64,000 bases of DNA from Chiloscyllium plagiosum (GCF_004010195.1 NC_057718.1:74157604-74221603); one strand, 5' to 3'. Counted from the stretch's first letter, positions 11,601-63,200 are shown. Notes: generated by a model from the letters alone, not told the origin. Program-made: numbers and translations.

Positions 11601-11604
11601 AATA

Positions 11605-20676: not shown

Positions 20677-21307
20677 ATGGGACTCTAAGGAGTGGTCAGA
20701 GCAGATGACCTACTCTACCACCATCTTGAATCATCCACATTCCTTGTTAAGCTTTCTATTAAGCAAGGAATGGGAGTCATAGGTTATCAGGGCTAAATGG
20801 GAATATGGATATGAGGTTATCATCAGAATGCTATGATTTTATTAAATGGCAGAGCAGCCTCCAGAAGTGAATGCCTCGCTCCTATTCCTTGTTTGTATGT
20901 TTTTCTCCTTAACTCCATAACCTTTGACTCCCTTGTTAGAATCTATGCATCTGTGTTTTAAGAATATTCAATAACTGTGTCCACTGCTCTCTGTGGAAGG
21001 GAATTTGAAAGACTCACAACCATCAGAGGAAAAAAAATCCTCTTCATTTCAATACCATTGATGACTCCTTACAACACAGTGATTGGAAATCAGTTGATAG
21101 CACAATGCTTAGCTAAGTGGGAATTGCCTTGGCTTTTGTGACAGGATACATGTGGGCCATTTTAACTTTGTTAAGTAGATACCAGTGTTTTAGCTTAGTC
21201 AGAGGTACAGAGGTACAGATCCTGGAGTCAAGGCACTTCTGGTTGTCGAGAGGGTCCCAAACAATTCAGCCTTGTCATCTGATTGCACAACTGTCACTGA
21301 GGAGAGT

Positions 21308-21526
21308 CATGATTTGGAGACACCGGTGTGGACTGGGGTGGACAAAATTAAAAATCACACAACACCAAGTTATAGTCCAACATGTTTAATTGGAGCGCGG
21401 CTCCTTCATGAGGTGGTTGTGCCTGATGAACCATACAACCACCTGATGAAGGAACAGCTCTCCGAAAGCTAGTGCTTCCAATTAAACCTGTTGGACTATA
21501 ACCTGGTGTTGTGTGATTTTTAACTT
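21308..21526. mobile_element. Fold-back PLE family A mini-element with 16-bp TSD
   Basis: Inverted arms ~21342-21420 and 21435-21529; TSD tgtcactgaggagagt at 21292-21307 and 21527-21542; hammerhead core on + at 21440-21474. Confidence 0.85.
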
Positions 21527-22741
21527 TGTCACTGAGGAGAGTGATACTCATGGAGCCTGCATTTCTATCAGTTGTTTAATTGTCTCCAGTCATGACTGGA
21601 TGCAAAAAAGCTGCAGAACATTGATTTGATCCATTAGATGTGGAATTGCTTAGTTCTATCACATTCTGCTTCAGCTATTTAGCATGCATGTTGTCCTGTC
21701 ACAGAGTTGACAGTTCATTTTCAAGTATAGCTGCTTTTCCTGATGGTTCACTGGGTGTCAGATATGCAATTTTGAGTTGACAGATTGTTAAATGAGATTA
21801 GTTCAGAATTAGAGAACTGGTGCCACAAATTGGAACACGTTCTAAGATGGAGAATGGAACTTGGTTCTCACAAGGACAATGAGGTGGTTACATTTGTCAG
21901 TCATGGACAGATGTCTTTGAAACTGGCTCTTACTATTGTGTCCTTTAATGCAAAGCCAGTTCCATCAGTCTCCCTCCTCAAATCTCTTAGAAGTGGTGTC
22001 CAACACAGACTCATCAGGTGAGAATGGATTAGAATAAAAAGGCAATATCAGTGTTTTGCTGCTGTGACACAACACTGATTTGAAACAGAGAAGATTAATC
22101 TTTTCAGTATACAATATCTGTTGAAACGTGGATTGCTGTGAACTGTCAAGAATAATTTCTGTTTCATTCATGAAACTTCATAGTTTGGAATCAATGTTGA
22201 GCTGGCCATTAGTTTGCAGGATGTTACCTAAAGAGTTGAATAAATTTCTTAAGTTATCATCACATGATCGTTGTGTCTCCAATAGTCTCACCACAATTCT
22301 TGTCTGACACACTGCTTTCCTGCACTGACTAGAAAGTGCATTGAATTCATGATTCTTGACTGTCATATAGGCATTTCCTACCCAACTTATCCTAGAACAT
22401 TGCCAACAAGAATGCTGAGTCCAAGGACATTTTAGAATTTTAAGATATAAATTATCCCAAATATTGGCTAATCATTGGCCTCAGGGCAATTTATAGAGTA
22501 TTGCCCACTTAGAATTGGATGTAGAATTCCTAATCCTATTTCTATACACGGGAACAGATAGTAATTTCTTATAGTTTTATCTAGTATGAGCATCCAAATT
22601 CCATGAGGAGAAAATTCCATGTACTTCCCTCAATGTTTACATGGTCATTTATATACATTTTGAATAGCTTAAAAATGCATTTCCTTTGCAACATTAAAAG
22701 TTGAAGAAACCCAACCACTCAATATTAAGCAATTAAACATC

Positions 22742-22747
22742 TTTATT
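22742..22747 (-). terminator. Probable NT5E polyadenylation signal
   Basis: AATAAA on the minus strand ~850 nt after the stop, followed by a GT-rich tract (gagtggttgggtttcttc). Confidence 0.55.
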
Positions 22748-23054
22748 CAAAATTCAATTAGATCAGTGCACGAATCAATCAGAACTCAAATCTTAAGCCA
22801 ATGCACTACATAGTTTCAATCTCTTGAGCAAAGCTATGGGCGATCAAACCCTTCATCATAAAATTATCTTAAAATTAAAGTGTTCTGATTTCAAAATAAA
22901 CATTCATAGATTTGTGCAACAAATGAATTAAGAACTCCAGATTCCATAATTTCTTATGGAAATACACAATTTGAGGTACTGCTATCAGTTTATAGGACTG
23001 TACATATAATGAGTACAGTATTAGTCTTGTTTCCATGATTCAGAAATAGCCCTT

Positions 23055-23395: not shown

Positions 23396-23596
23396 CATCA
23401 CTCGTTGGTTGCACTGTGCAGCTACAGCTAGAAACTCAGTTATCTCTTCAGTGAGCAGGTGGTCTGAAAATCAACTTATCAATATTTTAAATAGAAAGTA
23501 TGATTAACATCTCCTGGCAAATGCAAATTACAACAAAACAACATCTTTAGGAAAGGAATTAGTTATTTCACTGAACAAGTTAACTTATTATAATCA

Positions 23597-24608: not shown

Positions 24609-26298
24609 CTAAGAAAATGAATTTTATTATTCTTGGCAGCAAGCTTAAAAACAATCAACTCTTTAAAAGATCAACAAGATTGTCTATGTTTGGAGCCACA
24701 AGGGATGGGCGTAATCCTAAATGAATATTTCTCATCAGTACAAAAGGGTCTAGAGGGGCAATATTTTACAGTGGGTTGAGAGTACCTGGAACAGGCTGGC
24801 AGAGGTAGTGGTGGAGGCAAGTACATGGATGGGATAGGTATGGAGGGATATTGACCAAATACAAGCAAATGGAAATTACATTAATTGAATGGATAAGTTG
24901 GGCTGAAGGACCTGTTTCCTTGCTGTAAACCTCTGGTTCTATACTGGCACATATTGGGCATTTGCTTGAAGCTGTTCACTTTATCTCCCTCCCACCTGGA
25001 TTCCTCTCTTTCCTCTGAAGCCTTCCTCTTCTATTCACTTTTCCTAAATAATGACATTTTTCTATTGACTGCAAGATGAAGTTGCTTCACTGCTGTGAAA
25101 TGCATGTCTTATGATCCCAGTTCACATATGTCAAGGGGTGTTCCACATGAAATGTCAGGCTGTCTGCCAACTTCTTGAGTCTTTACATCGGATTGAAATG
25201 AAGTGCCACTACGTTCAGGCCACCATCACTGTCTATGCCAGAGTCGAAACACTTACATCAGTCTTGATGAGTGAAGTTTGTGTATTGTTGGCATTGGACA
25301 CTGAGGAACTGGGTTCCTGAGCAGCCAAGTCAATTAGTGAAAACTGGAGACTTTGTTGGCTTTTGCAGGCTCCTTTCTCCTGCTTTCTTACTTACATTGT
25401 AGTTTAAATGGAGATTACATAATTCACCAGAAGAGCATGGGGAGATCAGACAAATAACAATAGATCAGAACTGCTCAAGGAGTACTCCTGGTCTTTTTTA
25501 ACCAGGGTTTTGTATATGTGAAGCATGACTTCTATCCCCTTGCATTCCAGGCCTCTAGATCTTTCATCCATTACACTTTTGTTATTTTCCGGACATGATC
25601 ATGACATTTTAATTATTTGTGTACAGAATCCCTGTTCCTGATTCAATATTTGTTTTCTTGGGATATTCAACATGCTGGCCTCTTCCTCAACTGCAAATAT
25701 TAATGTAAAGTAATTATACCGAATTTGCCAACTTCCATTGACAATGGCACTGTTGCATTGATCTGATCACTTTTTTTTTTAATAATACTGTGCCATAAGT
25801 TTGTCCAGTTTAATATGGACAGTCATTGTCTCAATGCATTACCTAAATCTTTCTTAAATCTCAAAGCTTAGTAGCTGATTTGCATTTCTCCATTTCTCCA
25901 CTTCAAACACCAAGTTGAATTTAACCTAATATAATAACTATTAGATAAAATCTTACTTGTTCTTTGCCTAACCACTATTCCCTCTAATTTTATTCAGTGA
26001 TGCAGAAACATTTGTTTCTGTTTGCAGGCTCAATACTTTTTGGACTAAACCTAGCTGTGCAACAGGCAAGAAACACTGCTGTAAGCAAAATCTGGCTCAT
26101 TACTCTTTAGGAAATCTAATTTTGCATGCACTCTTGGTGACTGTAAATTGTGACCAAAATCTATCAAGGACTTACTTAAACTTTCTCACCGGTGCTAGTT
26201 TGTTTATTCCAGTCTGTATGAGAGTTAGAATCCCCTATTAAAACCATCTACGCCTTTGTTCAATCTCTGCATTTATATTGTTTACCACATCACAGCTG

Positions 26299-26471
26299 TG
26301 ATATCAAAGTGCTGGTGTTGGACTGGGGTGGAGAAGGTGAAAAGTCATACAACACCAGGTTTATTTTAAATCACAAAGCTGTCAGAACATTGCTCCTTTG
26401 TCAGGTGAAGTGACTGTTTTCAAATAAACCAGTTGGACTACAACCTGGTGTCATGTGACTTCTGACTTACT
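26299..26471. mobile_element. Fold-back PLE family A mini-element, diverged
   Basis: Partial inverted arms; TSD tcacagctg at 26290-26298 and 26472-26480. Confidence 0.75.
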
Positions 26472-26619
26472 TCACAGCTGCTATGAAGGGTCTCTGCATA
26501 ATTCCCAGAAAATCCTTAGTTGCTTTTCCATTTTATAATTCTACTTTCACTGGCTATTCCTGCCCCTTCACCATTTTGCCTATCGTGACTGTAAACCTTA
26601 TAAGCTATTTGTTTCCTTT

Positions 26620-27921: not shown

Positions 27922-28051
27922 GCTCCTGATGAAGGGTCCTGCTGGAAATGTTTACTCTCCTGCTCTTCAGATGCTGCCTGACCTGCTGTGCTTTTTCCAG
28001 TGCCAACTCTACCTACTCTAATTCTCCATCATCTGCAGTCCTCACTATCTC
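27922..28051 (+). mobile_element. PLE family B terminal fragment
   Basis: cctgatgaaggg...gatgctgcctgacctgctg...ctgcagtcctcact. Confidence 0.75.
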
Positions 28052-28495: not shown

Positions 28496-28698
28496 GTGAT
28501 GTGGAGATGTCGGTGCTGGACTGGGGTGGACAAAATCAAAAATCACATGTCACCAGGTTATAGTCCATTAGGTTTATTTGAAGTCACAACCTTTTGGAGC
28601 GATGCTCCTTCATCAGGCGCAAATAAACCTGTTGGACTGTAACCTGGCATCATGTGATCTTTGACTTTCCCAGTCCAATACTGGCACCTTCACATCAT
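28496..28698. mobile_element. Fold-back PLE family A mini-element in NT5E intron 7
   Basis: End-to-end inverted arms (gtgatgtggagatgtcggtgctggactggg...cccagtccaatactggcaccttcacatcat) enclosing a hammerhead remnant. Confidence 0.82.
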
Positions 28699-28772
28699 GG
28701 CTATTATCGACACTACAAACTGCCGGCTGGAGAGGATCTCAAAGAAGATTGTGTATATCAACTCAGCCTTAC

Positions 28773-35360: not shown

Positions 35361-37039
35361 AAAAAGTTATGAATTTCAGTTTAAATAGATATAGACAATG
35401 AATATGAAGAATGGAGATCATATAAGAGAATGTATTATATTTCTGTTGGCTAAACAAAAGAACATGTTGTATGTTATAATATATCAATATACAGTAACTC
35501 CCTCTTTAATGATGACACACTTCATACGACTTTATTTACAATGTTAAAGTGAAATAATGTCAATATATATGCATTTAACAATGAGTGTTGCAGTTTAATT
35601 CATCCACCACAAGTTTCCTGTTTTGTAGCCTGAAAAGACCCCCGGCCAGCATCCATTTCCATCCTGAATCTTACTTTTATTGTTTCGAGATTCCATTGTT
35701 ACCACGAGGGACTTTAGCTGCTTTTCTTCCTGACTTCCTACCCTTATTCTCAGACTTGCCTTTAGATTTGCTCCTTCCAAAACTGGGAGTCAATGCATCA
35801 ACATGCATGGACCATCTGATGTTGTTTTTAACCCACTGCTGCCTTTCTCTAACCTTTCTGCCATCCTTGTTCCAGCCTTGGGCCTGAGCTTGCCCTCAGC
35901 CTGGATTTCAACCTTGTTCCCACACCTGTCCTTGTCCTCAGTTCCTCTTTGCCCATTTCCCATTCACAGCGTTTTGTTCTTATCTTGGGATTTCAACTGT
36001 TGCCAGTCAATTTCTGCAACTAGATGGAACTTGGTCAAGCTAAAATTAGACGAGTGTAATTTTTCAAACTTTTATTTTATATTTACTGTGTTTTTGTAAC
36101 TAAATTTACTTTATTTTAATGGTTATTTATCTTATATATTTAGGAACGTGCAGCATTTCAACTTCCAAAATGTTCATGTCTTTTGTCTGCTGCAAAAGTT
36201 TCTAATGTACTAATAATACAATTTCTTTTTTACATGTAATAATTTATTTTACTTTGCCGATTTTTTGAGTCAGGAGTGTACAATACTACACATAAATAAT
36301 ATTTCAATTTGTACATTGGTTTGATAAGGGAAGAAAAAATATTCAAAAGAACCTAACTCCAGGTTACATTCCAACACTGATTCCTATGGAAACCCGTTAG
36401 TTCACTTAAACATCTATTTTTGCAGTTCCAATAGATTTTCATTGCTTGCACTTGTAAATTTGTTTACAAAAAAACAGTTTAGTAAATTTGAGTCAGAATC
36501 ATACAGCATGGAAACAAACCATTCAGTTCAACTAGTCCACGTCAACAAAGTTCCCAAACTAACTGGTCCCACTTGCCTGCATTTAGCCCCTATTCCTCCA
36601 AAGTTTTCCTATTCATGTATTTATCCAAATGTCTTTTAAATGTTGTAACTGTATCTGCATCTACCACTTCCTCTGGTAGTTCATTCTACACATAAACCAT
36701 TGCCCCTCATGCCCTTTTTAAAACGTTCGCCTCTCACCTGAAAAATATGCCCCCTCGTTTTGAATTTCCCCTTTCCTAGGGAAAAGACCTTTGGCATTCA
36801 CTTTATCTATGCCCCTCATGATTTTATAAACCTCAACCTCCTACTCTCCAGTGAAAGAAGTCCCAGCCTATCCAGCCTCTGTTAATAACTCAAACCCTCC
36901 ACTCCGAGAGACATCCGGTATATTTTTTCTGAACCCTCTCCAATTTAATAACATCCTTCCTATAACAGGGTGACCAGAGCTGGACACAGTATTCCAGAAG
37001 AGACCTCATCCTGTATGACCTGAACATGTCGTCCTAACT

Positions 37040-37850
37040 AGGGGAAAGTGAGGATTGCAGATGCTGGAGATCAGAGTCAAAAAGTGTGGTGCTGGAAAAG
37101 CACAGCCAGTCAGGCAGCATCTGAGGAGCAGGAGAATTTACATTTCGGGCATAAGCTCTTCATCAGGAATGTGGCTTGTGGGCCAAGGGGTGCTCATAGA
37201 TAAATGGAAGGGGTTGGGCTGGGAGGAGGGTTGCTGGGAAAGTGAGAAGTAGCTAAAGGTGGGGCTGAAAGTGATGGGTTGGAGAGGAGGGTGGAACAGA
37301 TGGGTGTGAAGGAAGATAGACAGGTAGGACCGTTCAAGAGCGCAGTACTGAGTTAGAAGTTGGGGACTAGGATAAGGTGGGGCGAGGGGAAATGGTGAAA
37401 CTGGTGATATCCACATTGGTCCCGTGTGTTTAGAGGGTCCCTGGGCTGAAGATGAGGCGTTCTTCCTCGGGTGGTTAGGGTTTGGTGATGGAGGAGGCCC
37501 AGGACCTGCATGTCCTTGGAGGAGTGGAAAGAGGAGTTGAAGTGTTCAGACAAGGGGTAGTGGTGTCAGTTAGTGCGGGTGTCCCAGAGATGTTCTCTGA
37601 AACTATCCGCAAGTTGGCGTCCTGTCTCCCCAGTGTATAGGAGACCACATCGGGTATATTGGATGCAGTAGATGACAGGTGAAGTGTAGAAGTACAGGTG
37701 AATCTCTGATGGATGTGGAAGGATCCTTTGGGGCCTTGGATGGAGGTGAGGCAGGAGGTGTGGGCACAATTTTTGCATTTGTGCGATGGCAGGGGAAGGT
37801 GCCAGGAGGGGAGGGTGTGTAGATGGGAGACATGGACCTGACCAGGGAGT
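37040..37850 (-). mobile_element. PLE family B 3' part with GIY-YIG endonuclease
   Basis: VIYCIQYTRCGLLYTGETGRQLADSFREH; family B terminus; degenerate TSD ending tcctaact on both sides. Confidence 0.85.
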
Positions 37851-38200
37851 CATGGGCATCCTAACTCCTATACTCAATGAATGTAAGCACAATAAATGCC
37901 TTCTTAACCACTCTGTCTGCCTGTGATGCAATTTTCAAAGAAGTGTGCACCTAAACTCTTAGTCTTTGTTCTACAACACTACTCAGGGCCCTGGCATTAA
38001 CTGTACAAGTCCTGTCCTTGTTGGCTTTACTGAAATGCAATACCCTTACATTTGTCCAAATTAAACTCTATGTGCCATGCCTCAGTCCATTGAACCAGTT
38101 GATCAAGATCTCTTCATAATCTTAGGTAAGCTTCTTCACTGTCCACTATACTAACAATTTTGGTGTCATCCGCAAACTTACTAACCATGTCTCTGATATG

Positions 38201-38318
38201 GAAGGGCTTATGCCCGAAACGTCGATTCTCCTTTTCCTTGGATGCTGCCTGACCTGCTGCGCTTTTCCAGCAACACATTTTCAGCTCTGATACCCAGCAT
38301 CTGCAGTCCTCACTTTCT
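38201..38318 (+). mobile_element. 118-bp PLE family B terminus with 16-bp TSD
   Basis: TSD ccatgtctctgatatg at 38185-38200 and 38319-38334; the insert starts inside the hammerhead core. Confidence 0.88.
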
Positions 38319-39399
38319 CCATGTCTCTGATATGCTCATGACGAACAACAGTGGGCTCAGTGCTGACATTTGTGGGACAACGCTTGTCACAGGCCTCCAG
38401 TCTGAAAAACAACCCACCATCACCACTCTCTGTCTCCTACCATAAAGCCAATTTTGTATCCAATTGGCAAGTTCACCCTGAATCCCATGTGGTCTGACTT
38501 TACTAATTAGTCTACCAAATGGAATCATGGATCTATTGCTCTGTCTCAATTCTTTTGGTTACTTCCTCAAAAAGCTCAAATCAAGTTTGAAATAAACTCT
38601 TTCTCTTGCACAAAGCCATGCTCACTTTCCCTAATTAGTCCTTGCCTCTCCAAATGCACGTAAATCCTATCAGTCAGAATCACCTCCAACAACTTACCCA
38701 AGACTGATGTCAAGCTCATAGATCTATAGTTCCTAGGTGTCTCCTTACAGCCTTTCTTAAACAAAGGCAAAACATTAGCCACCCTCCAGTCCTCTAGCAC
38801 CTCATCCATGGTTATAGATGATACATATATTTCTGTGAGGGGTCCCACAATTTCTTCCCTAATTTCCCGCGACATCCTGGGATAAACTTGATCAGGTCCC
38901 AGAGATTTAACCACCTTTATGTTTTCTAAGGCTTCCAGCACTTCCTCTTTTGTAATGAGAACTGTTTTCAAGACATCTGTATTTGTTTCCCCAAGTTCTC
39001 TCACCTCCATTTATTTGTCTACAGCAAAAACTAATGCAAAATATTCATTTAGTCTCTCACTCATCTCCTGTGATTAAACATGATCTTTTAAGGAGTCTTA
39101 TTCTCTTTCTATTTGCTCTTTCGCTCTTAATTTACTTGTAGAATGTCTTTGCATTATCCTTAATCTTATCTGCCAAGGTTCTCTCATTTCCCTCTCTGCC
39201 TTCCTTATTTCCCTCCTTAAGAATGACCCTACACTTTTTATGCTTGGCTGTATTTCAGCAGCTAGAAGACAATTTGTGTCATTGAGGTTATATTCACAGC
39301 ATGACTGACAGTTTTAAGAAGTTTTTAATGGATTACATGTCTTTGATGTAATTACTGATTAAATGTTTCCATTTATAACAATGATTAGTTGATGAGATT

Positions 39400-41910
39400 T
39401 ACTTTTGTTTAAATTGGGTCTAAATTATTTTACTTGGAAGAGGATAAGAATGGGCCTGAAATCAAAGTTCTAAACTGTTTGAAGGCTGAGTTTAATAAAA
39501 TCAGATATGTTTTGGTCAGAGTGGACTGGGGCAGATACTTTCAGATAAATCAGTCTCAGAACAGTGGAATGTGTTCAAGATGGAAAAAATGGAGAGTATT
39601 TGGCTAAAAGGGTCCAATAAAGAGAAAGAGATCTTCAAATCGTGTCAACTCTAGATAACAAAGATATACATCATTGGATAAAGAGGAAGAGAAGTGAGGC
39701 TTATGATAAATGTCGACAGCTGTAAACAGCAGACACCCTACAGGACTAATGTGCAAGAGGGAACTTGAAAAGATTAAGAGAGTTAAAAGGTTACACAAAA
39801 AGATGCTGACAGATAAAACAAAAGAAAAATTGAGGTTGTTTTAACAGCACATTGAGGTTAAAAAATAATGAGCGGAAGAATAGGGCCCATTGAGGACTAT
39901 AGTGGTAATTTGAGCATGGAGCCAGAGGATGTAAGTAGAGTTCCAAATAAATACTTTGTGTCGGTGTTCACTAATGAGAGGGATGATATGGGTGTGGAAA
40001 TCAGGGAGAAGGTCTGTGATGCAATTAAAAGAATTACCATAAATAGAGAGGAGGTTCTGAGTAGTCTGGCGAGCTTAAAAATAGATATGGCCAGGGCCAA
40101 AGGAAATTTATCACAGATTGTGGGAGACAAGGAAGGAAATAGCAGAGGCACTTGCAAAAATTTCCCAATTGCACTCTGGCTACAGGAGACATGCTGGAGG
40201 ACTGGAAGACAGCCAGTCTGATACCATTACTCAAGAGGGAGCAAGGGATAAATCAGGAAATGTGGCCTGTCAGTGTAACCTTATTGATGGATAATCTATT
40301 GGGACAATTCTGAGGGACAGAATTAATCTGCATTTGGAGAGGCAGGGATTAAATCAAGAATAAAGTTAAATTGGCTTTGTTAAGGGAAGGTCATGTTTGA
40401 GGAACTTGATGGAATGTTTCGCAGAGGTGACAAGGTGTGTAGATGAGGGCAATACTTTTGATGTAGTATATTTGGACTTCAGCAAACCTTTTGAGACAAT
40501 CCTACATGTGAGATCGATATCAAAAGGAAGAGCCCATGGGATCCAAGGAAATTGGCAAATTTAATCCACAATTTGCTCAGTAGCAGGAAGCAGAGGGATA
40601 GTTCCAGCGTCTCTCCCTGACTGAAATTGTATCCAGTGGGGTCCCACAAGGGTTATTGGTGGGGCCCTTCCTGATTGTGGGTTACATAAATGATTTAGAC
40701 TTCAGTGTACGAGGGCTGATCAGTAAGTTCGCACATGTTACAAAAATTGGTTGAGTACTAAGAATGAGGAAAATAGCCTTAGTCTACAAGAGGATATAGA
40801 TATGTAGGTCAGATGGGCTAATTGATGGCAAATTTATTTCAGTCTGGATAAACGTAAAGTGATGCCTTGTTTGTCCTGTCCAAATGCAAGAGAATACATA
40901 ATGGATACAGGGTCCTGGGAAGTACAGAGCATCCGAGGGACCTTGAGAGCATGTATACTGGCCCCCGAAGGTACAGGACAGGTGGTTAAGAGGGCAAATG
41001 GTACACTTGCCTTTATTAGCCGAGGCATTAAGAGCAGAGAGGTTATGCTGAAATTATATACAATGTTGGTTAGGCTACAGCTGGAGTGTTGTGTGTACTT
41101 CTGGGATCCAAATTATAGAAGGGATATAATAGCACTGGAGGGGTGCACAAGGGATTTATCAGAATGTTGCCTGGGCTGAAGAGTTTTAGTTAAGAAGAGA
41201 TTTGACAGATTAGGGTTATTTTCCTTAGTGCAGAGGAAATTAAGAGAGGTCATGATTGAGATGTACAAAATTGAGGGGCACAGATAGAGTAGACAGAAAG
41301 AAACATTCCACTTTGAATCATTGAATTACAACAATGGAAACAGACTATTTGGCCCACCAAGTCCACACTGACCCTCTGAAGACCATCCCACCCAGACCCA
41401 TTCCCCTACCCTATCCCTGTAACCCTGCATTTTCCATGGCTAATACACCTAATCTGCACATCTTTGGACTGTGGGAGGAAACTGGAACACTCGGAGACAG
41501 ACTCTCACGCAAACACAGGGGGAATGTGCAAACTCTACACAGACAGTCGCCTAAGGTTGAAATCAAACCCAGGTCCCTGGCACTGAGAGGCAGCAGTGCT
41601 AACCACTGAGTCGCCGTGCCGCCCATAATGGAGGGATTAATGACCATAGGTAAGGGCAGAATGTTTAGAGGAGATGTGAAGAAAAACTTTTTCTGGTGGG
41701 TATCTGGAACTTGCTGCCTGTAACAGTATTTGAGGCAGAAATCCTCATAACATTTCAGTTGCATTTAGAAGTGCACTTGTGCTGTCAAGGCATGGAAGGG
41801 TATGGGCCAAGAGCTGGAAAATGAAATTAGAATAGTTAGATGGTTGTTTTTGACTGGTCTGAACACATGGGTCAATGGGCCTTTTTCTGTGCTGTAGGTT
41901 TTTATAGCTC
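39400..41910 (+). mobile_element. CR1 LINE, decayed, with nested HE1
   Basis: ORF2 remnants (PNKYFVSVFT; EVMLKLYTMLVRLQLECCVYFWDP) and 3' UTR. Confidence 0.85.
41314..41624 (-). mobile_element. HE1 SINE inserted in CR1
   Basis: Reverse-complement head (gccgtgccgccc), central domain and tail. Confidence 0.88.
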
Positions 41911-44239
41911 TAATTATTATGATTTTCAGTGACAGCTATACTTAATTATTAGAGGGTGCATTGTTAAACCTGGTTCAAAGAATTCTCATTGATGTTACAT
42001 GGTTCCTGGGGACTGTACCAACTGAGACAGTGTTATGGAGACTGCATTGGGAGTATTACAGAGTATTGGGTTTGGAAGGATATAGAGAACATAGTGTATG
42101 GAGGGCATGAGAGGACATGAAAGCAATGAGTTGGGCGAGAGCTGGACTGACACGGCAGTGAACCGAGACAGGATGTCTGATGAGCCCACCTTGTCACCTA
42201 CAATCCTTTGACATTGGGTTGGGAGTTGGAAAACCTGAACAATGTCAAACCACATCTTCAAGTAAATAAAAATATGGCAAGTCTGGGTAGAGGACAGGCA
42301 GAGGTTTCAAGAGTCAGGACATGGGTCTAAATCACATTTCCCTATTCAAAGACACAGACAGTCGCCTAAGGTTGAAATCAAACCCAGGTCCCTGGCACTG
42401 AGAGGCAGCAGCCCATAGTCACTGTTGTAATGCAGTAAATGTTGCAGTCAGTTTTCACTCAGTGAATGCAGCCAAGTGATGTGATAATGAGCAGATAATC
42501 TATGTTTTAGTAATACTAGTTGAGGGACAAATATTATCCAGTACACCAGGAAGAACTTGCCTTCTCACTGAATTCCAGAGCTGAATTTCAATTCACCTTT
42601 AACTCATCTCTTTCCTTCAACTGTTTCAGTAAAATTATTAACTCAGTATTAAAACAATAGCATAAAAATTTAAGTAATGTTCAGGAGCAGCAATGACAGT
42701 CTATGCTTTTAGCCAGTCAACAGTCGCTAACTTTGCAGCCATACAAGAGAATGGCCAAAAGTGAATTGGTGTGGGAATTGTCCCAGTATACATTTCCATC
42801 TTTCAAAGATATGCAGTGACAGAGGTGTCTCTTAGGATGTCTTTTTTTTCAAAAGTGCTCTTACACACAACTGATGCGCCCCAATCTCAAATCACCATGG
42901 TTTTTATTCATTAACCACCATCAGTAAATCACCAGTGTTTTCCAATTGAATTATTTTATGTACAAAGCCCATTAAGGGCAATGTAAATCATGAAAGGTGA
43001 GGAAGACATAGAGAGGGAGCTAAATCAAAATGAGGTTGGAACACAAGGTGTCTTTATTACTTAATGTACAACTAACGTATATTACCTGAACAAAGAGAAT
43101 GATCTGAAGGTATCCCTTTCCCTATCTTAGTTAAACAATATCAGATAGCCCACATTTTTCTTATAGAGTCATAGAGTTATAGAAATATAAAGCATGGAAA
43201 CAGATCATTCAGTCCAACTCATCCGTGCTGACCAGATATGCTTAACTGATCTAGTCCCAGCATGGGCCAGCATTTGGCCCATATTCCTCTAAACCCATCT
43301 TATTTATGTACACATACAAATGTTTTTTAAATGTTGTAATTGTGCCCACTCTGCCACCATCTCTGGCAGCTCATTCCCTTTGCATGTAAAGGTTACTCAT
43401 CAGGCTCATTTTAAATCTTTTCCCTCTCACCTTAAACCTATGCCCTCTTGTTTTGGACTCCCCTATCCTGGGAAAAAGACCTTTACCATTCATCCTATCC
43501 ATGCCCCTCATGATTTTATAAACCTCTATAAGGTCTCCCATCAGTCTCCAATCATCCAGGGGAAAAGCCCTAGACTACTCAGTCTCTACCTGCAGCTCAA
43601 ACCCACTAGTGCTGGCAAAATCCATGTAAGAGGAGAGAGTGAGGACTGCTGGTACTGGAGATCAGAGCTGAAAATGTGTTGCTGGAAAAGCGCAGCAGGT
43701 CAGGCAGCATCCAAGGAACAGGAGAATCGACGTTTCGGGCATAAGCCCTTCAGGAATGAGGAAAGTGTGCCCAGCAGGCTAAGATAAAAGGTAGGGAGGA
43801 GGGACTTGGGGGAGGGGCGTTGGAAATGTGATAGGTGGAAGGAGGTCAAGGTGAGGGTGATAGGCCAGAGTGGGGTGTGGATATATTTCCCTCCCCTCCC
43901 CTATCAGCATTCCAATCAAGACCACTCCCTCCGGGACTCCCTCGTCAGATCCACACTCCCCACCAACCCAACCTCCACTCCCGGTACTTTCCCCTGCAAC
44001 CGCTGGAGGTGCAAGACTTGCGCCCACACCTCCCCCCTCACCTTCCTCCAAGGCCCCAAAGGAAACTTCCATATCCGCCACAGATTCACTTGCACCTCCA
44101 CACACATCATCTATTGCATCCTCTGCACCCGATGTGGCCTCCTCTATATTGGGGAGACAGGCCGCCTACTTGCGGAACGTTTCAGAGAACTCCTCTGGGA
44201 CACCCGGACCAACCAACCCAACCACCCCGTAGCCCAACT

Positions 44240-45197
44240 NNNNNNNNNNNNNNNNNNNNNNNNNNNNNNNNNNNNNNNNNNNNNNNNNNNNNNNNNNNNN
44301 NNNNNNNNNNNNNNNNNNNNNNNNNNNNNNNNNNNNNNNNNNNNNNNNNNNNNNNNNNNNNNNNNNNNNNNNNNNNNNNNNNNNNNNNNNNNNNNNNNNN
44401 NNNNNNNNNNNNNNNNNNNNNNNNNNNNNNNNNNNNNNNNNNNNNNNNNNNNNNNNNNNNNNNNNNNNNNNNNNNNNNNNNNNNNNNNNNNNNNNNNNNN
44501 NNNNNNNNNNNNNNNNNNNNNNNNNNNNNNNNNNNNNNNNNNNNNNNNNNNNNNNNNNNNNNNNNNNNNNNNNNNNNNNNNNNNNNNNNNNNNNNNNNNN
44601 NNNNNNNNNNNNNNNNNNNNNNNNNNNNNNNNNNNNNNNNNNNNNNNNNNNNNNNNNNNNNNNNNNNNNNNNNNNNNNNNNNNNNNNNNNNNNNNNNNNN
44701 NNNNNNNNNNNNNNNNNNNNNNNNNNNNNNNNNNNNNNNNNNNNNNNNNNNNNNNNNNNNNNNNNNNNNNNNNNNNNNNNNNNNNNNNNNNNNNNNNNNN
44801 NNNNNNNNNNNNNNNNNNNNNNNNNNNNNNNNNNNNNNNNNNNNNNNNNNNNNNNNNNNNNNNNNNNNNNNNNNNNNNNNNNNNNNNNNNNNNNNNNNNN
44901 NNNNNNNNNNNNNNNNNNNNNNNNNNNNNNNNNNNNNNNNNNNNNNNNNNNNNNNNNNNNNNNNNNNNNNNNNNNNNNNNNNNNNNNNNNNNNNNNNNNN
45001 NNNNNNNNNNNNNNNNNNNNNNNNNNNNNNNNNNNNNNNNNNNNNNNNNNNNNNNNNNNNNNNNNNNNNNNNNNNNNNNNNNNNNNNNNNNNNNNNNNNN
45101 NNNNNNNNNNNNNNNNNNNNNNNNNNNNNNNNNNNNNNNNNNNNNNNNNNNNNNNNNNNNNNNNNNNNNNNNNNNNNNNNNNNNNNNNNNNNNNNNN
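44240..45197. other. Assembly gap (958 N)
   Basis: Run of N. Confidence 1.
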
Positions 45198-45298
45198 CCC
45201 TCACCTTGACCTCCTTCCACCTATCGCATTTCCAACACCCTTCCCCCAAGTCCCTCCTCCCTACCTTTTATCTTAGCCTGCTGGGCACACTTTCCTCA

Positions 45299-45332
45299 TT
45301 CCTGAAGAAGGGCTTATGCCCGAAACGTCGAT
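45299..45332 (+). ncRNA. Minimal hammerhead ribozyme motif (PLE family B)
   Basis: UC CUGAAGA A GGGC UUAU GCCC GAA ACGU C GA: full core, 4-bp stem II, palindromic ACGU stem III, GUC cleavage triplet. Confidence 0.75.
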
Positions 45333-45605
45333 TCTCCTGTTCCTTGGATGCCGCCTGACCTGCTGCGCTTTTCCAGCAACACATTTTCAGCAACATCTAT
45401 GTAAGGCTTTTCTTCACCCTTTCAAGTGTAACAACATCTTTCCTCAAGCATAGAAATCAGAATTGAACTCAGCAGTCTAAAAGTGGCCTCACCCAATGCA
45501 CTCTACAGCGCAACATAATGTCTTAACTCCTACATTAAGCGCACTGATGCCAAATGTCTTCTTCACCACCCTGTTTACCTGCAACTCCACTTTTAAGGAA
45601 CTATG

Positions 45606-46388
45606 TCAAGAGTGTGGTGGTGGAACAGCAAGTCACGCAGCATCCGAAGAGCAGGAGAATCAACGTTTTGGGCAAGAGTCCTTCATCAGGAATGAGGATG
45701 GGAGCCTCGGAGGTGGAATGATAAATGGGAGGGGGTTGAGGCTGCGGGGAAGGTAGCTGAGAGTGCCATAGGTAGATGGAGGTGAGGGTAATGGTGATAG
45801 GTTAGAGAGGAGGGTGGAGCGGATAGATGGGAAGGAAGATGGACAACTGGGACGAAATGGAAGTTTGAAACTGGGTTAAGCTGAGGGGAGGGAAATGAGG
45901 AAACTAGTGGTCCATATTGATGCCGTGTGGTCCATCCCTGTTCCCTTACCACTCAACGCTTGGAGGAAGAACACCTCATCTTCCACCTTGGGACCCTCCA
46001 ACTCCATGGGATCAATGTGGATTTCACCAGTTCCCTCATTTTCCATCCCTCCACCTTATCCCAGTTCCAACCTTCCAACTCAGCACTGCCCTTATGACCT
46101 GTCTACCTGTCCATCTTCCTTCACACCAATCCGCTCCACCCTCCTCTCTGACCTATCACCTTCACCCCCACATCCATCTACCTATCATATTCTCAGCTAC
46201 CTTCCCCCCAGTCCCACTCCCTCCCATTTAATTCTGTACCCTCTCAGCTCACAAGCCTCACTCCTGATGAAGGGCTCTTGCCTGAAATGTCAATTCTCCT
46301 GCTCCGCGGATGCTGCCTGACCTGCTGTGCATTTCCAGCACCACAGCCTGGACTCTGATTTCCAGCATCTGCAGTCCTCACCTTCTCC
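45606..46388. mobile_element. PLE family B inverted pair (minus 45606-45935, plus 45935-46388)
   Basis: Two opposed family B termini with C-rich/G-rich 3' UTR. Confidence 0.8.
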
Positions 46389-46389
46389 A

Positions 46390-48610: not shown

Positions 48611-48611
48611 G

Positions 48612-48742
48612 AACCTGACAAAGGGTTCTTGCCCAAAGCGTTGATTCTCCTGCTCCTTGGATGCTGCCTGACCTACTGTGCTTTTCCAGTACCACACTCT
48701 CGACTCTGATCTCCAACACCTGCAGTCCTCACTTTCTTCTTT
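48612..48742 (+). mobile_element. PLE family B terminal fragment
   Basis: cctgacaaagggttcttgccc...gatgctgcctgacc...ctgcagtcctcacttt. Confidence 0.78.
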
Positions 48743-56876: not shown

Positions 56877-58546
56877 GAAGAGAAGCAGTGGCAGTGGCAT
56901 GTGAGAGATGATGGCTATCCTTGCCCAGAAACTAGATCAATGCAGCCAGTCAAGTGACAGTCTGGCTGCCTTCATGGACAGGTTGGCTACTGCCATGGAG
57001 AGCCAGGCCCAGTGATCTACTGGACAGCAGAATTTATCTGCACTCTATCACCGCACCCATTGGTCTCCAGGACCAAAGGCATGGCAATAGGGGGACTGGG
57101 AACCTTGACCAGAGTCCAGGCTCCCTTTCCTCACAAGGAGTCAGGGCACTGCCAGGAGGCACCCAGCTGGATGACGAACCACACTGGTAAGATGACCCTT
57201 GGTGTATCTGGTGCATCTAGACATGAATGGCCGCAGGGTCATCCTGCCAATACCACAGAGCCTACAGCACAGCAGTACTCTTTCCCCTCCCCGACTCCAG
57301 CTATAAATGGGAGAGAGAAAAAACAGAAAAACAGTTATTGAGGGTGCATTGGTGGCACAGGTGAAGAAGGTTATCTTATTTTTCTAAATGCGTACATATA
57401 TATCATTGATTGTAACTTTCAGGAATCTGTTTGAGTCTCTTTTTGTAAGTGCTTGACACATTTTCACAGCAGCTCACAGCCAATCAAGATGGACTGATGT
57501 TTGTGTTTAGCTACAACCAGAAGAACAAGCTACAGGCACCACATGACCTTCTTGAATGTCCGGAATGTTTGGGTCCCTCTGTGCACACAGGTGTTGTTGC
57601 CAAAGAGTTGCCCAGCAGCAGCTGTGGCAGGGAGGTGCCACCTTCGAAAAGGGTCAATGGTGCAGAGTAACCAGCAAGTATGTTTCCTACTGGTCTTTGT
57701 GCTAGACCTTTCAGGGGTGTATGACCAATGTTGTTTCCACTTTAAAAGCCCTCTAAATGGTGTGTGGTGCAATCCCTCCCTCACAGGTCGAATCACTTAT
57801 CCCGCTCAATTCAATTGTGGTCGCAGCCATTTTCATCCCATTGCACACTCTTGATTTTCAACATGATGGGATGTGACGGTGAGCATTCCTTTCTCAGCAC
57901 CTCCCAGCTGTTTTGTCTAGACTGTATACCCACGCAGCTGCTCCAGTGTTTTATACACAGCAATCGGTGTTGGCACATCGATCTCAAGATTGACCTTGCA
58001 TGGCAGCGATTTCCAGAACTGCATGGGCTTTAAGGCCTCCAGAGGTGAGTAGAAAATTAGAAGGAATGCTGATCACAGACTCACACTTCCCAATGTCCCC
58101 ATGCAACCTGTCTACATTCATTTACACCATCAATTATCATGCTCCCTGTGCTAGCAGTGCATTTTTGAGTAACAAAGCAGCTTCCTAAAACTGAAGTCTG
58201 TCTGTTCCTTCAGAAAGACCATTCTGCATTGGAGTAGAAGGCGGTATTCTTATAACTTATCCACTTTGTAGTAAGCAATAATAATTTTGTCTGAATTGAC
58301 TCCATCCTGTCAGGTCCCTGGCACTATTTTATAAATAGGTGGGATTTCTTAATCTGGCCAACAACTATCCCACAATTGATACCCCAATGTAAAGTAAGTA
58401 CTGTAAGAAATAGAATTCAAATATGAAGAGAAAATAAAATTACATGGTTTATCCCAGGAGGACCATTATTAAATATAATAACTGGATGTAAAACCGAGGA
58501 AAATTGAAATTTCCCAGGTGACAAAGTCAACCCTTCTCAAATAACA

Positions 58547-58707
58547 GGAGAATTGACGTTTCGGGCATAAGCCCTTCTTCCTGAAGAAGGGCTTATGCCC
58601 TAAACATCGATTCTCCTGTTCCTTGGATGCTGCCTGACCTGCTGCGCTTTTCCAGCAACACATTTTCAGCTCTGATCTCCAGCATCTGCAGTCCTCACTT
58701 TCTCCTC
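58547..58707. mobile_element. Fold-back PLE family B mini-element in NT5E intron 4
   Basis: 38-bp arms at 58543-58580 and 58583-58620 with a 2-nt loop; TSD ctcaaataaca at 58536-58546 and 58708-58718. Confidence 0.88.
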
Positions 58708-58879
58708 CTCAAATAACATTCAACATAAAAGATTCAGCATTTAAATCAGGTCTGATTGAATTCTTTCAATTATGCTTTGTCATAACTCAAAACGCATGAC
58801 TTTGATAAGTTGCTTCAGAAGCTCAAATATTTTGATGCAATGAATAATTTACCAATGAAATGTGCACTTGTCACATTAC

Positions 58880-59077: not shown

Positions 59078-60234
59078 CTGTGAAGTGAAAGCAAACATTG
59101 CAATCAGTTTAGCAGACAGAAGCAGCAAAAATTAAGATCTATTATTAGCCTTGTATAGTCTGAAGGTTTTACCACACATTCAGCTCACCAAGCCTATGTT
59201 AGTTCATTAAAATGCAGCAGACTTTATTAGCTGGCACTTATGGAATCAGGAGTATGCTGATTGTTCAAAAGGTCCACACAATCAGTACAAAATCACACAC
59301 TAAATAATATAAACAAAAGGCAGGGTGTATACATATTTAAAACTTTACTTACAGAATAAATCACTTAAATATAGTTCAACTTTGTCTTAAATAAAACTCA
59401 CCAACAGAGAGCCTTCTCACTCGCACCCTCAACAGAGATCACAATAATATAGTAAACTTGCAGAATTTCAGGTATATAATTTTTGTTGGTTTATTCAGAG
59501 TGCCAGTTCGTTCGGTGCCGGTTAAAACAAAGTTTGCTGTAAATATTCAATTATTTTGTGATCCTGCTGTTGCCCAGAGTTCTGCAAACTTCTTTCATTT
59601 TTAAGTGGAGATACATTTCCTTTTAAAAGTCACTAGTGAACCTGCTTTCATTACCTTTCTGGCAATGCATTCCTGATCACACTAGCTCTGTGCAAGAAAA
59701 AAAAACTCTCATCTTCCCTGCCTTTTTGGCCATTATTTCTTACTTCATTCTTGTTCTCAGTTTTTTTTCTATTTTTTCTGTGCATGTGGGTCTCTGTTAA
59801 TTAAGGTTAGCATTTATTGCCTATCTTTAATTGTTTTTGAACTGTGTGGCTTACTAAGCTGTTTCAGAGGGCAGGAAAGAGTTGACTCCAATGTCAGAGT
59901 CGTACAACATAGAACAAGCCCTTCAGCCGATTGAGTCTGCTGTGGTCTAGAGTCAAATGTAGACCAGACAGGGTAAGGATAGGAGATTTCTTATTAATGA
60001 TAAGATATTAATGAACTAGATGGAGATTTACGACAATCAATGATAGTTTCTTGGATGCCACATTGAAATTAGCTTACAATTCTAGGTTTTATTACCAACC
60101 ATCCTAACGATAGAAACATTTTCTATCCATCCAATCAAAACTTCGGTCCCTTTAGCCTACTCTGCCATTTAATAGGATATGGCTGATTTGACATTTCTTA
60201 CATACAATTTCCTCACTTTCCCCATCTCACCACT

Positions 60235-63200
60235 GAACTAAAGGCACGGGATGGCTGAGTAACCAGGGTTATATATTTGGGCGGTTGCTTTACCCGAAAC
60301 ACTAATCAGGTAGTGTCTCCCACCCATCCTCCTCCTCTAACCAAAAACAAACGTTCTGTGTGCCGATTTGATAAGGTTACTAGCTTTTTTCAGTAATTCC
60401 TTTGGGAATTTAGAACAATGGGAATGGAGGTTGGAGCAGTTGAATGCTCCTTCTGTAGAATGTGGGAGGCAATGGTCACCGCTAGTGTCCTTGTTGACTT
60501 AAACTGCAGGAAGTACACCAAACTCCAGCTCCTTGGAATCGGTATTAGGGAAAAGAAGCTGGAGCTGGATGAACTAAGGATCATTCGGGAGGCTGAGGGG
60601 ATAATTGAGAGGAGTTACAGGGAGGTAGCCACACCTCAGGTACAGGAAGAAGGTAGATGGGTTACAGTCAGGGACAGAAAGGGAACAGGCAGACAGTGCA
60701 GGGATCCTCTGTGGCCGTTCCCCTCAATAACAAGTATACTGCTTTCGATACTGTTGGGGAGGACGACTTAACAGGAGTAAGCCATGGAATACAGGTCTCT
60801 GGCACAGAAGGGAAGGTGGGGAGAGGAGTAGAGCATTAGTTATTGGGGTCTTCATAGTTAGGGGGAAAGATAGGAGGTTCTGTGGGAACGAGAGAGGCTC
60901 ACGGTTGGCGTATTCCCTCCCAGGTGCAGGGTCCATAGTGTCTTAGATCGTGTTTTTAGGATCCCTAAGGGGGAGCAGCCTCAAGTCATGGTCCACATAG
61001 GCACCAATGGCATAGGTAAGAAGTGGGATGGGATGTAAGGCAGAAATTCAGGGAGCTAGGATGAAAGCTTAATGCCAGAACAAACAGTGTTTTATCTCTG
61101 GTTTGTTACCTGTGTCACATGCTAGCGAGGTGAGGAAAAGGGAGAGAGAGGAGTTGAACATGTGGCTACAGAGATGGTGCAGGAGGGAGGGATTCGGATG
61201 CCTGGATAATTGGGGCTCATTCTGGGGTAGGTGGGTCCTCTACAAACAGGATGGTCTACGCCTGAACCAGAGAGGTACCAATATCTTGGGGTGGGGGTGG
61301 GGGTTGCTAATGCTCTTCAGGCGGATTTAAATTAATTCAGCAGAGGGGGGATGGGAACCTGAATTGTAGCTCCAGTGTACAGGGGGTTGAGAGTAGTGAG
61401 GTCATGAATAAGGTTTCAAGGTTGCAGGAGTGTACCAGCAGGCAGGGTGTCTATTTCAATGCCAGGAGCATCTGGAATAAGGTGGGTGAACTTGCAGAAT
61501 GGGTTGGTACCTTGGTCTTCGATGTTGTGGGCATTTCAGAGACATGGATAGAGCAGGGACAGGAATGATTGTTGCATGTTCTGGGATTTAGCTGTTTCAG
61601 TAAGAACAGGGACGGTGGTAAAACAGGGGGAGGTGTGGCATTGTTACTCACGGACAGTATTATGGTGGTAGAAAGGACGTTTGAGGAGGACTCGTCTACT
61701 GAGGTAGTATGGGCTGAGGTTTGAAACAGGAAAAGAGAGGTCCCTCTGTTGGGAGCTTTCTATAGGCCTCCAAAAAGTTCCAGAGATATACAGGAAAGGA
61801 TTGCAAAGATGATTCTGGATAGGAGTGAAAGTAACAGCATAGTTGTTAGGGGGACTTTAACTTCCCTAATATTGATTCAAAATGCTATAGTTTGAATACC
61901 TTAGATGGGTCAGCTTATTCCCAATGTATGCAGCAGGTTTCCTGACACAGTATGTAGATAGGACTGCAGATGCTAGAGATTAGAGTTGAGAGTGTGATGC
62001 TGGAAAAACACAGCAGGTCAGGCAGCATCTGAGGAGCAGGAGAATTGACGTTTTGGGCAGAAGCCCTTCCTGATGAAGTCGATTCTCCTGCTCCTCGAAT
62101 GCTGCCTGACCTGCTGCGCTTTTCCAGCATCACACTCTCGACAGTATGTAGATAAGCCAATAAGAGGCAAGGCCACATTGGATTTGGTACTGGGTAATGA
62201 ACCAGGTCAGGTGTTAGATTTAGAGGTATGTGAGCACTTTGGTGATAGTGACCACAATTCAGATAAGTTTACTTTAGCATTGGAAAGGATTATAAGAGAT
62301 AAGATTTATAATCATCCAGAAAGGAATAATTTGATTAGGGATAGCCAGCATGGTTTTGTAAAGGGTAGGCTGTGCATCACAAAGCTTATTGAAGTGACAA
62401 AACAGGTGGTTGAGGGTAAAGTGGTTGATGTGGTATATATGGATTTCAGTAGTGTTGATAAGGTTCCCCACAGTAAACTATTGCAGAAAATATGGAGGCA
62501 TGGGATTGTGGGTGATTCAGCAGTTTGGATCAGAAATTGCTAGCTGAAAGAAGACAGAGGGTGGTGGTTGCTGGGTGGTGGTTCATCCTGGAGTTCAGTT
62601 ACTAGTGGTGTACAACAAGGATCTGTTTTGGGGGCTCTGCTGTTTGTCATTTTTATAAGTGACCTAGATAAGGGCGTAGGATTATCGGTTAGTAATTGCG
62701 GATGACACTAGAGTCGGTGGAGTTGTGGACTGTGTGGAAGGATGTTGCAGGTTACAGAGGAACATAGATAAGCTGCAGAGCTGGGCTGAGAGGTAGCAAA
62801 TGGAGTTTAATTTGGAAAAGTGTGAGGTGATTCAATTTGGAATGAGTAACAGGAATACAGAGTACTGCGCTAATGGAAGATTCTTGGTAGTGTGGATGAG
62901 CAGAGAGATCTCAGTGTCCATGTGCATAGATCCCTGAAAGTTGACACCCAGGTTGATAGGGTTATTAAGAAGGTATAAGGTGTGTTAGCTTTGATTGGTA
63001 CAGGGATTGAGTTTCAGAGCCATGAGATCATGTTGTAGCTGTACAAAACTCTGCTGCAGCTGCACTTGGAGTATTGCATAGAGTTTTGGTTGCCACATTA
63101 TAGGAAGGATGTGGAAGCTTTAGAAAGGGTGCAGCGGAGACTTACTAGGATGTTGCTGGGTATGGAGGGAAGGTCTTATGAGGAAAGGCTGAGAGACTTG

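What the first reader, a model, noticed from the sequence alone, without database searches (positions are those of the whole stretch)
21292..62154. Recurrent MITE-sized fold-back elements built from Penelope termini and centred on hammerhead ribozyme motifs
Seen: five short (160-220 bp) palindromic insertions from two unrelated sequence families (A: 21308, 26299, 28496; B: 58547, 61961), four of them with clean 9-16 bp TSDs. In each the inversion falls at or just beside a CUGANGA..GAAA motif, and lone B termini (27922, 38201, 48612) also start at or inside that motif. Known: PLEs carry minimal hammerheads in their terminal repeats and often have an inverted 5' repeat. Inference: a ribozyme-processed short RNA, or RT stalling and template switching at the ribozyme, repeatedly yields a non-autonomous hairpin element. 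That would be a retrozyme-like or MITE-mimicking class in sharks.
Basis: partly seen in the sequence, partly recalled or inferred. Interest (0 to 1): 0.7.

Follow-up and report, generated by a model that had tools for sequence, protein, structure and literature searches.

The report
Mini fold-back Penelope retroelement insertions
The five small DNA hairpins are real, but they are one-off stumps left when a known kind of jumping gene (Penelope-like) lands head to head, and they seem to end where the element's RNA begins rather than where its ribozyme cuts.

Summary
All five fold-backs exist, four with 9-16 bp TSDs. They are miniature Penelope-like element (PLE) insertions with the published 'inverted 5'-truncated copy + 35-nt tail' layout; two larger fold-backs of family B in the window invert 129-302 nt upstream of the ribozyme. 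The clustering is real: 11 of 20 arms start within -12..+5 of the hammerhead C3, and public reads of family B show a 6.5-fold depth step with top 5' loose ends at -4/-3. That is the front edge of helix I, about 30 nt before the cut site, so self-cleavage does not explain the main peak. The -4 base is an initiator-like A with an AT-rich hexamer 32-35 nt upstream. Best model: the PLE enzyme primes on both nicked target strands at two internal start sites, runs off the RNA's 5' end (inferred transcription start), and the two cDNAs join through short inverted repeats in the ribozyme core. All five junctions differ, none keeps an intact ribozyme, no dominant shared junction was listed: not a propagating MITE or retrozyme family. 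A minor signal at the cut site remains open. The scan reported this pattern before on other DNA of this genome.

The parts
21292..21307 (+). A1 left TSD (16 bp)
21308..21421 (-). A1 inverted arm: starts -9 from hammerhead C3 (21412), 16-nt deletion removing GAAA and the cut site, ends with the ~35-nt tail
21422..21433 (+). A1 junction filler, mostly a copy of the CUGAUGA box
21434..21526 (+). A1 direct arm: starts -9 from C3 (21443), ends at the tail-less terminus
21527..21542 (+). A1 right TSD; first 4 nt also match the element end
26290..26298 (+). A2 left TSD (9 bp)
26299..26407 (-). A2 inverted arm with tail; decayed core (C3 at 26404); inner end between -3 and -12; 15-nt internal deletion
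26408..26471 (+). A2 direct arm: begins at or just after the predicted cut site (+29 to +33), ends at the tail-less terminus
26472..26480 (+). A2 right TSD
27923..28051 (+). Lone family B copy, starts -3, ends with tail; no TSD found
28497..28619 (-). A3 inverted arm with tail, starts -3 from C3 (28616)
28620..28699 (+). A3 direct arm, starts +36 (8 nt after the cut site), also carries the tail; no TSD found
37038..37851 (-). Long lone B copy: endonuclease C-terminus, 3' UTR, hammerhead (C3 37166), tail
38201..38320 (+). Lone B copy, starts +5, ends with tail, 16-bp TSD (38185-38200 / 38319-38334)
43631..45391 (.). Large B fold-back: inverted tailed arm 43631-43881 (inner end -129), then + strand GIY-YIG endonuclease, N gap 44240-45197, tail-less end; 16-bp TSD with 2 mismatches
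45266..45271 (+). AT-rich hexamer, only W6 run in the 104 nt upstream of C3; candidate TATA-like box
45296..45302 (+). Initiator-like heptamer; its A (45298) is the top 5' loose-end position in three public runs; inferred transcription start
45298..45333 (+). Intact minimal type I hammerhead of family B (C3 45302, GAAA 45322-45325, predicted cut 45329|45330)
45605..46388 (.). Mid-size B fold-back: tail-less inverted arm (inner end -262) and tailed direct arm (inner end -302); no TSD found
48614..48740 (+). Lone B copy, starts -1, ends with tail
58532..58546 (+). B1 left TSD (15 bp, 1 mismatch)
58547..58580 (-). B1 inverted arm, +2 to +35 only; outer end internal, with 4-nt match to target; shares a 3-nt overlap with the direct arm
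58578..58703 (+). B1 direct arm, starts -3 (C3 58581), ends with tail
58704..58718 (+). B1 right TSD
61947..61960 (+). B2 left TSD (14 bp)
61961..62069 (-). B2 inverted arm, starts +5, carries most of the tail
62067..62140 (+). B2 direct arm, starts -3 (C3 62070), 17-nt deletion of helix II, ends at the tail-less terminus
62141..62154 (+). B2 right TSD
10936..11601 (-). Long lone family A copy: intact minimal hammerhead (C3 11019), TATA-like hexamer at -40, tail-less end
5344..5772 (.). Family A inversion: tail-less inverted arm 5344-5659 (inner end -234) next to a + strand upstream piece 5663-5772

Best explanation
Each hairpin is a dead-on-arrival PLE insertion built anew at landing. (1) Shown: both families have two preferred 3' ends about 35 nt apart (the PLE 'tail'); 5 of 7 two-armed copies carry one of each. 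(2) From published biochemistry, applied here by inference: the PLE protein nicks and extends both target strands and starts reverse transcription at two internal sites near the ORF start. (3) Shown for family B: most copies stop at a hard boundary 3-4 nt before the hammerhead core. Inferred: this boundary is the 5' end of the RNA, a transcription start at the front of helix I, so cDNA primed 90-125 nt downstream simply runs off. (4) Inferred: the two same-sense cDNAs are joined head to head through short inverted repeats in the ribozyme core, giving a different joint, filler or deletion each time. The ribozyme marks the place because it sits at the start of the RNA and offers short self-complementary words, not because it cuts.
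For: Two 3' ends: +89 and about +124 in B, about +83 and +120 in A; 314 reads continue into the tail at 45391 in run X21. In B an ATG-led frame opens about 20 nt after the cut site and is open through the tail in 4 of 5 tailed copies translated, as the rotifer pLTR holds the first 12 codons and 22 with the tail (PMC3846280). Both-strand extension, a predicted dimer and two internal RT starts: PMC11167929. 11 of 20 arms start in -12..+5 (binomial 1e-13 uniform null, at most 8e-7 under four exponential nulls; window chosen after looking). RNA-read depth 104 upstream versus 680 downstream; top listed 5' loose ends at 45298/45299 in X1 (55, 48 contigs), X13 (82, 51), X21 (84, 33 reads), loose letters near random (agreement 0.34-0.39). 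45298 is the A of an initiator-like heptamer in 3 of 4 long B copies tested and all 4 have their only AT hexamer 32-35 nt upstream (joint shuffle frequency 0.004-0.007 per copy; copies are related). Family A copy 11019 has TATAAA at -40, 31-32 nt before where both A1 arms start. Arms of one element share private variants (A1, B2). 3-nt overlaps at B1 and B2 joints.
Against: No direct RNA 5'-end data: one search listed no place where many molecules begin. The initiator motif is common in this pyrimidine-rich region (up to 6 matches in 120 nt); A5425 lacks the AT hexamer and neither A copy has a full initiator match; the A start was chosen after looking. In D. virilis Penelope the start lies 46 bp before a 75-bp intron and the promoter is TATA-less (PMC2377424), so start and ribozyme do not coincide there. 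Two arms (A2, A3 direct) start at or up to 8 nt after the cut site, and 5 of 12 shown filler joints link 45329/45332 to 45298/45299 (kind not shown; 51 more hidden). Part of the depth step may come from subfamilies with other upstream sequence (45% of reads at 45340 are older-type; the loose consensus of X21 at 45298 is C-rich like pLTR). A3 has tails on both arms and B1 has an internal outer end. Only family B was tested in reads.
Confidence: 0.62

Rival explanations
1. Same independent formation, but the boundary is an RT stall or template-switch site caused by the folded ribozyme (or by hairpins in the new cDNA), not the RNA's 5' end.
For: Deletions skip helix II or the core in A1 and B2; A1's filler is a copy of the CUGAUGA box; B1 and B2 joints use a 3-nt inverted repeat inside the core. 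Depth keeps rising inside the ribozyme (379, 527, 603, 662 over four bins).
Against: A stall is expected where RT enters a structure (3' side), yet the sharp peak is at its far 5' edge (reasoning); the monomer motif folds no better than shuffles (z +0.95 to -1.51 in 11 of 11 segments); promoter-like motifs sit at the expected spacing.
Confidence: 0.2
2. Ribozyme self-cleavage makes the template: the 3' cleavage product is reverse-transcribed, explaining at least the arms that begin at the cut site.
For: 2 of 20 arms (A2, A3 direct) begin at +29 to +36 with the cut after +28; B2 can be parsed with its direct arm starting at +25; 5 shown joints involve 45329-45332. The Anolis ribozyme cleaves when the protein is present (PMC11167929).
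Against: 11 of 20 arms keep the whole core upstream of the cut; depth rises only about 10% across the cut-site bin; no loose-end row at 45330 among the 18 shown (385 hidden); complementarity of the two helix I strands explains such joints without cleavage; cleavage was not needed for insertion in vitro and no RNA-seq ends were found at the cut in Anolis.
Confidence: 0.1
3. A self-propagating non-autonomous hairpin family (retrozyme-like or MITE-like) copied as a unit from master fold-backs.
For: A2 and A3 share a similar layout, as do B1 and B2; one opposite-strand joint (45298/45309) is listed in three runs from two organisms; some filler joints have contig depth 44-90, above the 4-13 of several other pieces.
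Against: 0 of 5 joints are identical; B1 and B2 belong to different subfamilies; TSD lengths vary; ends are offset by the tail; cores are decayed; that shared joint is 1 contig per DNA run and 11 of 975 reads. Sensitivity is limited: perfect palindromes may break contigs.
Confidence: 0.06

Closest known systems
Complex insertions of endonuclease-bearing Penelope-like elements: inverted 5'-truncated pLTR, 30-40 bp tail, TSD (Arkhipova et al. 2013, PMC3846280; Craig et al. 2021, PMC8557442; passages read)
   Same: Head-to-head arms, tail usually on one end only, 8-16 bp TSDs, palindromes or microhomology at the joint, pLTR reaching into the first codons of the ORF, TATA plus initiator-like motif in the pLTR.
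   Different: Here both arms are only 35-125 nt, with no ORF body, and the 5' ends pile up at a fixed base in front of the hammerhead instead of being variably truncated; that fixed boundary was not found in the passages read.
Minimal type I hammerheads in metazoan PLE terminal repeats (Cervera and De la Pena 2014, PMC4209133; parts 1-2 of 4 read)
   Same: Core boxes, one extra base before helix II, G-C first pair of helix II, palindromic two bases after GAAA, no helix III; mostly single dispersed motifs; pairs on opposite strands 100-700 bp apart were noted in Schistosoma.
   Different: Helix II is 4-5 bp here versus 7-8 bp in Schistosoma; sharks are not named in the parts read; no breakpoint analysis there.
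PAc (Poseidon of Anolis) internal initiation of reverse transcription (Frangieh et al. 2024, PMC11167929; parts 1-2 of 4 read)
   Same: Two RT start sites defining the tail, near the ORF start and downstream of the hammerhead; both target strands extended.
   Different: That work did not describe head-to-head mini-insertions or a fixed 5' end in the text read; its Fig. S2 could not be seen. Here 2-5 nt of target match the element end in several copies.
Non-LTR retrozymes (Cervera and De la Pena 2020, PMC7229834, passages; Li et al. 2026 bioRxiv 10.64898/2026.07.22.740005, part 1 and passages)
   Same: Short, non-coding, PLE-related, hammerhead-bearing, long TSDs.
   Different: Retrozymes are head-to-tail tandem units of 150-450 bp with canonical type I ribozymes yielding circular RNA; these are head-to-head, minimal-type and decayed.
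MITEs; L1 twin-priming inversions (both recalled, MITE definition also in PMC8969392 passage)
   Same: Small size and inverted repeats (MITE); second-strand internal priming with short target match (B1's short arm).
   Different: No transposase-type termini or uniform copies; in L1 twin priming the inverted part is upstream sequence, whereas here the same 3' module is copied twice.

Membership tests
Endonuclease-bearing PLE (family B) | C-terminal GIY-YIG endonuclease upstream of the terminal repeat | tested here: met
   43878-44237 hits Pfam GIY-YIG at E 0.0057, below the curated cutoff; 57 of 198 candidate proteins at E<=1e-10, some with RT domains, best 69% identical; they map to 37356-37851 and 43869-44237
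Neptune clade (family B) | CX2-5CxxC linker between RT and endonuclease (PMC8557442) | tested here: met
   C-X4-C-X2-C in P0001; no tree was built, and Nematis shares a similar motif
Endonuclease-bearing PLE (family A) | RT and GIY-YIG ORF linked to the terminal repeat | tested here: inconclusive
   No A copy in the window reaches its own ORF; assignment rests on hammerhead, tail and inverted layout
PLE insertion unit | 30-40 bp tail present at one end | tested here: met
   Two 3' ends about 35 nt apart in both families; 5 of 7 two-armed copies have one of each
PLE insertion unit | Adjacent inverted 5'-truncated copy and TSD | tested here: met
   8 of 13 A/B insertions in the window are inverted; TSDs in 4 of 5 small fold-backs
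Minimal type I hammerhead | CUGANGA, extra base, paired helix II, GAAA, two bases, UH | tested here: met
   Met by long copies at 11019, 45302, 46264; 0 hits in 20 simulated sequences; not met by any of the five fold-backs
Minimal type I hammerhead | Self-cleavage activity | not testable with these tools
   Needs an in vitro assay
Non-LTR retrozyme | Head-to-tail tandem units each with a complete hammerhead | tested here: not met
   No tandem A or B units in the window self-comparison; fold-back cores are decayed. Whole genome not available
Non-LTR retrozyme | Circular RNA | not tested
   The RNA run laid was polyA single-cell data, unsuited
MITE | Inverted repeats flush with both termini and a family-fixed TSD length | tested here: not met
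   Ends offset by the tail in 4 of 5; TSDs 9, 14, 15, 16 bp
MITE / propagating family | Many copies sharing one internal structure | tested here: not met
   0 of 5 joints identical; no dominant joint listed (family B only, limited sensitivity)

The most novel reading that the evidence does not exclude
Shark PLEs transcribe from the very front of their hammerhead, so internal RT initiation mass-produces 'run-off' cDNAs of fixed size; any dead copy that keeps about 40 bp of promoter upstream can act in trans as a SINE-like donor; and the minority of arms that start at the cut site are a genomic footprint of the minimal ribozyme cutting in vivo, which has not been shown for metazoan PLEs in the papers read.
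Probability: 0.15. Interest if true: 0.68.

Novelty: new variant of a known kind. Interest (0 to 1): 0.36.

Why it matters
How PLEs make inverted ends and tails, and what their ribozyme is for, are stated open questions in the papers read. If the run-off model holds, a shark genome holds a very large natural record of single integration events (13 A/B insertions in this 64 kb) that ties the 2024 in vitro results to genomic products, locates the promoter, and separates transcription start from ribozyme cut. In practice it also warns that such hairpins will be mislabelled as MITEs or microRNA precursors (sub-threshold miRNA hits). It is not a new class of element.

Tried and rejected
Whole-genome census: no genome is held for this window. 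Rfam scan: 4 matches, all sub-threshold miRNA models on hairpins, no hammerhead family. Pattern scans: viral contigs 1 and 0 loci, metagenome contigs 48 loci; none of the 49 aligns beyond 26 nt, taken as chance. Run search listed no RNA holder on record; run X22 laid 0 reads, no test. Folding 11 ribozyme segments as monomers gave no signal, expected for a motif without helix III. No fetched protein carried the proposed B N-terminal peptide motifs, so the ORF start rests on DNA frames only. A 3' splice site at the B boundary (as in D. virilis) was rejected because no AG precedes 45298 in the long copies and short copies share no upstream exon. My first label 'Poseidon' for family A was dropped: the PLE-like ORF remnant at about 5790-6665 ends in a different terminus and had no Pfam hit. 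Literature: searches gave no paper describing a fixed 5' boundary at the hammerhead or shark mini fold-backs; most subscription papers, Repbase and Dfam could not be searched, and Fig. S2 of PMC11167929 is an image that may bear on this.
Full report
Observation. TSDs are 16, 9, 15 (1 mismatch) and 14 bp for A1, A2, B1, B2; A3 has none; 1 of 500 random site pairs scored as well as the weakest of the four. A self-comparison of the window gave all A and B copies: 13 insertions (5 A, 8 B) with 20 arms that carry a 3' end.

What the families are. Family B is linked to a GIY-YIG endonuclease remnant with a C-X4-C-X2-C linker; its relatives include RT-bearing proteins and, closest, shark-labelled records at 63-69% identity. 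The linker fits the Neptune clade as described in PMC8557442; no tree was made. Family A reaches no ORF in the window, so its clade is open. Both carry the minimal type I hammerhead of PMC4209133: a strict descriptor matches three long copies (11019, 45302, 46264) and none of 20 simulated sequences, and matches none of the five small fold-backs.

Outer ends. Both families end at two positions about 35 nt apart (B: +89 and about +124 from C3; A: about +83 and +120). [quoted passage not shown] Five of 7 two-armed copies have one tailed and one tail-less end; A3 has two tails; B1's short arm ends internally at +35 with a 4-nt match to the target. PMC11167929 shows for an Anolis PLE that both target strands are cut and extended and that RT starts at two internal sites near the ORF start, which define the tail. 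In B an ATG-led frame opens after the ribozyme and runs through the tail in 4 of 5 tailed copies.

Inner ends. Eleven of 20 arms start between -12 and +5 of C3, 2 start at +29 to +36 (cut after +28 in A), 7 run far upstream (B arms; A arms read by eye). Binomial tails are 1e-13 for a uniform null and at most 8e-7 for four exponential nulls; the 18-nt window was chosen after looking. For an outside test I laid four public runs on the young B copy 45198-45450. In raw RNA reads (X21, 975 laid) depth is 104 over 45261-45287 and 680 over 45324-45368; even if all older-type reads (45%) are removed, at most 30% of the rest extend upstream. The top listed 5' loose ends are 45298 and 45299 in X1 (55, 48 contigs), X13 (82, 51; a second organism) and X21 (84, 33 reads; 27 more at 45302), with near-random flanks; 385 further rows were hidden. 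X1 may be the source of the window; X22 laid nothing. The predicted cut is 45329|45330, about 30 nt downstream.

Why there. Base 45298 is the A of an initiator-like heptamer (consensus recalled); 3 of 4 long B copies tested match it at -4, and all 4 have their only six-base AT run 32-35 nt upstream (joint shuffle frequency 0.004-0.007 each, copies not independent; a fifth copy shows the same). Family A copy 11019 has TATAAA at -40, about 31 nt before the start of both A1 arms; copy 5425 lacks a clean hexamer. A TATA plus initiator-like pair was described in a rotifer pLTR, while D. virilis Penelope is TATA-less and starts about 120 nt before its ribozyme. I infer that the boundary is the transcription start, and that cDNA primed at the two internal sites runs off it. 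This is inference: no capped-end data were seen.

Joints. All five differ: a 3-nt overlap from a short inverted repeat in the core (B1, B2), a filler copied from the CUGAUGA box (A1), joints near the two helix I strands (A2, A3), and deletions of 15-17 nt in three arms. B1 and B2 come from different subfamilies, while the two arms of A1 and of B2 share private variants, as expected if both were copied from one donor. In one search only 2 of 15 shown filler-free joints are opposite-strand; one (45298/45309) appears as 1 contig in each DNA run and 11 reads in X21. No high-depth shared joint was listed, though palindromes may break contigs and only family B was laid. Against my reading: 5 of 12 shown filler joints link 45329/45332 to 45298/45299 (kind not given, depth 34-90), and two A arms start at the cut site. 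This may be helix I complementarity or true cleavage products; it stays open.

Comparison. It works like, and B is a member of, endonuclease-bearing PLE insertion units. It fails the tests for non-LTR retrozymes (head-to-tail tandem units with complete ribozymes; PMC7229834; bioRxiv 10.64898/2026.07.22.740005) and for MITEs (flush termini, uniform copies). Opposite-strand ribozyme pairs 100-700 bp apart were already noted in Schistosoma. A fixed 5' boundary at the ribozyme was not found in searches; Repbase, Dfam and most subscription papers were out of reach, and supplement figures were unreadable. What I saw of each paper: PMC4209133 and PMC11167929 parts 1-2 of 4; the bioRxiv preprint part 1 of 5 plus passages; PMC3846280, PMC8969392, PMC2377424, PMC7229834 passages; PMC8557442 passages and section 15.

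Earlier notes of this scan describe the same pattern in other windows of this genome, and two of them also suggest the boundary is the start of the copied RNA. My start-site idea was noted; these notes are not independent support. One search found none that mention TATA or initiator motifs together with these terms.

Verdict. Real, explained largely by known PLE biology, with one modestly new and testable feature: a fixed 5' boundary that looks like the transcription start. New variant of a known kind; interest 0.36.

Noticed in passing
window 5344-6880: Composite: inverted family A end, a short + strand A piece, then a decayed PLE-like RT/endonuclease remnant of a third family ending in its own hammerhead-like terminus near 6760-6878.
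   Followed up: partly
window 20231-20665: A SINE-like repeat (7 or so copies in the window) also forms a head-to-head or tail-to-tail inverted pair here (arms 20458-20504 / 20575-20621).
   Followed up: no
window 41537-41596 and 42352-42411: A 60-bp stretch duplicated at 100% identity about 800 bp apart.
   Followed up: no
window 44240-45197: The only assembly gap (958 N) lies inside the large young family B fold-back.
   Followed up: partly
window 17022-18206 and others: Many decayed LINE reverse-transcriptase fragments (RVT_1 hit E 3.5e-31 for 17280-18140); no host gene was identified, none was searched for.
   Followed up: partly
window 45391 to 45347/45348 (table 5c): A recurrent joint from the tail-less terminus back to the predicted ORF start region, depth 243 and 70 in run X1; kind not shown, possibly a short tandem or tail-to-tail form.
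   Followed up: no
3' ends of A1, B1, B2, 38201 copy: 2-5 nt of the TSD also match the element end, hinting at short base-pairing during priming, whereas the in vitro study reports initiation without homology.
   Followed up: partly
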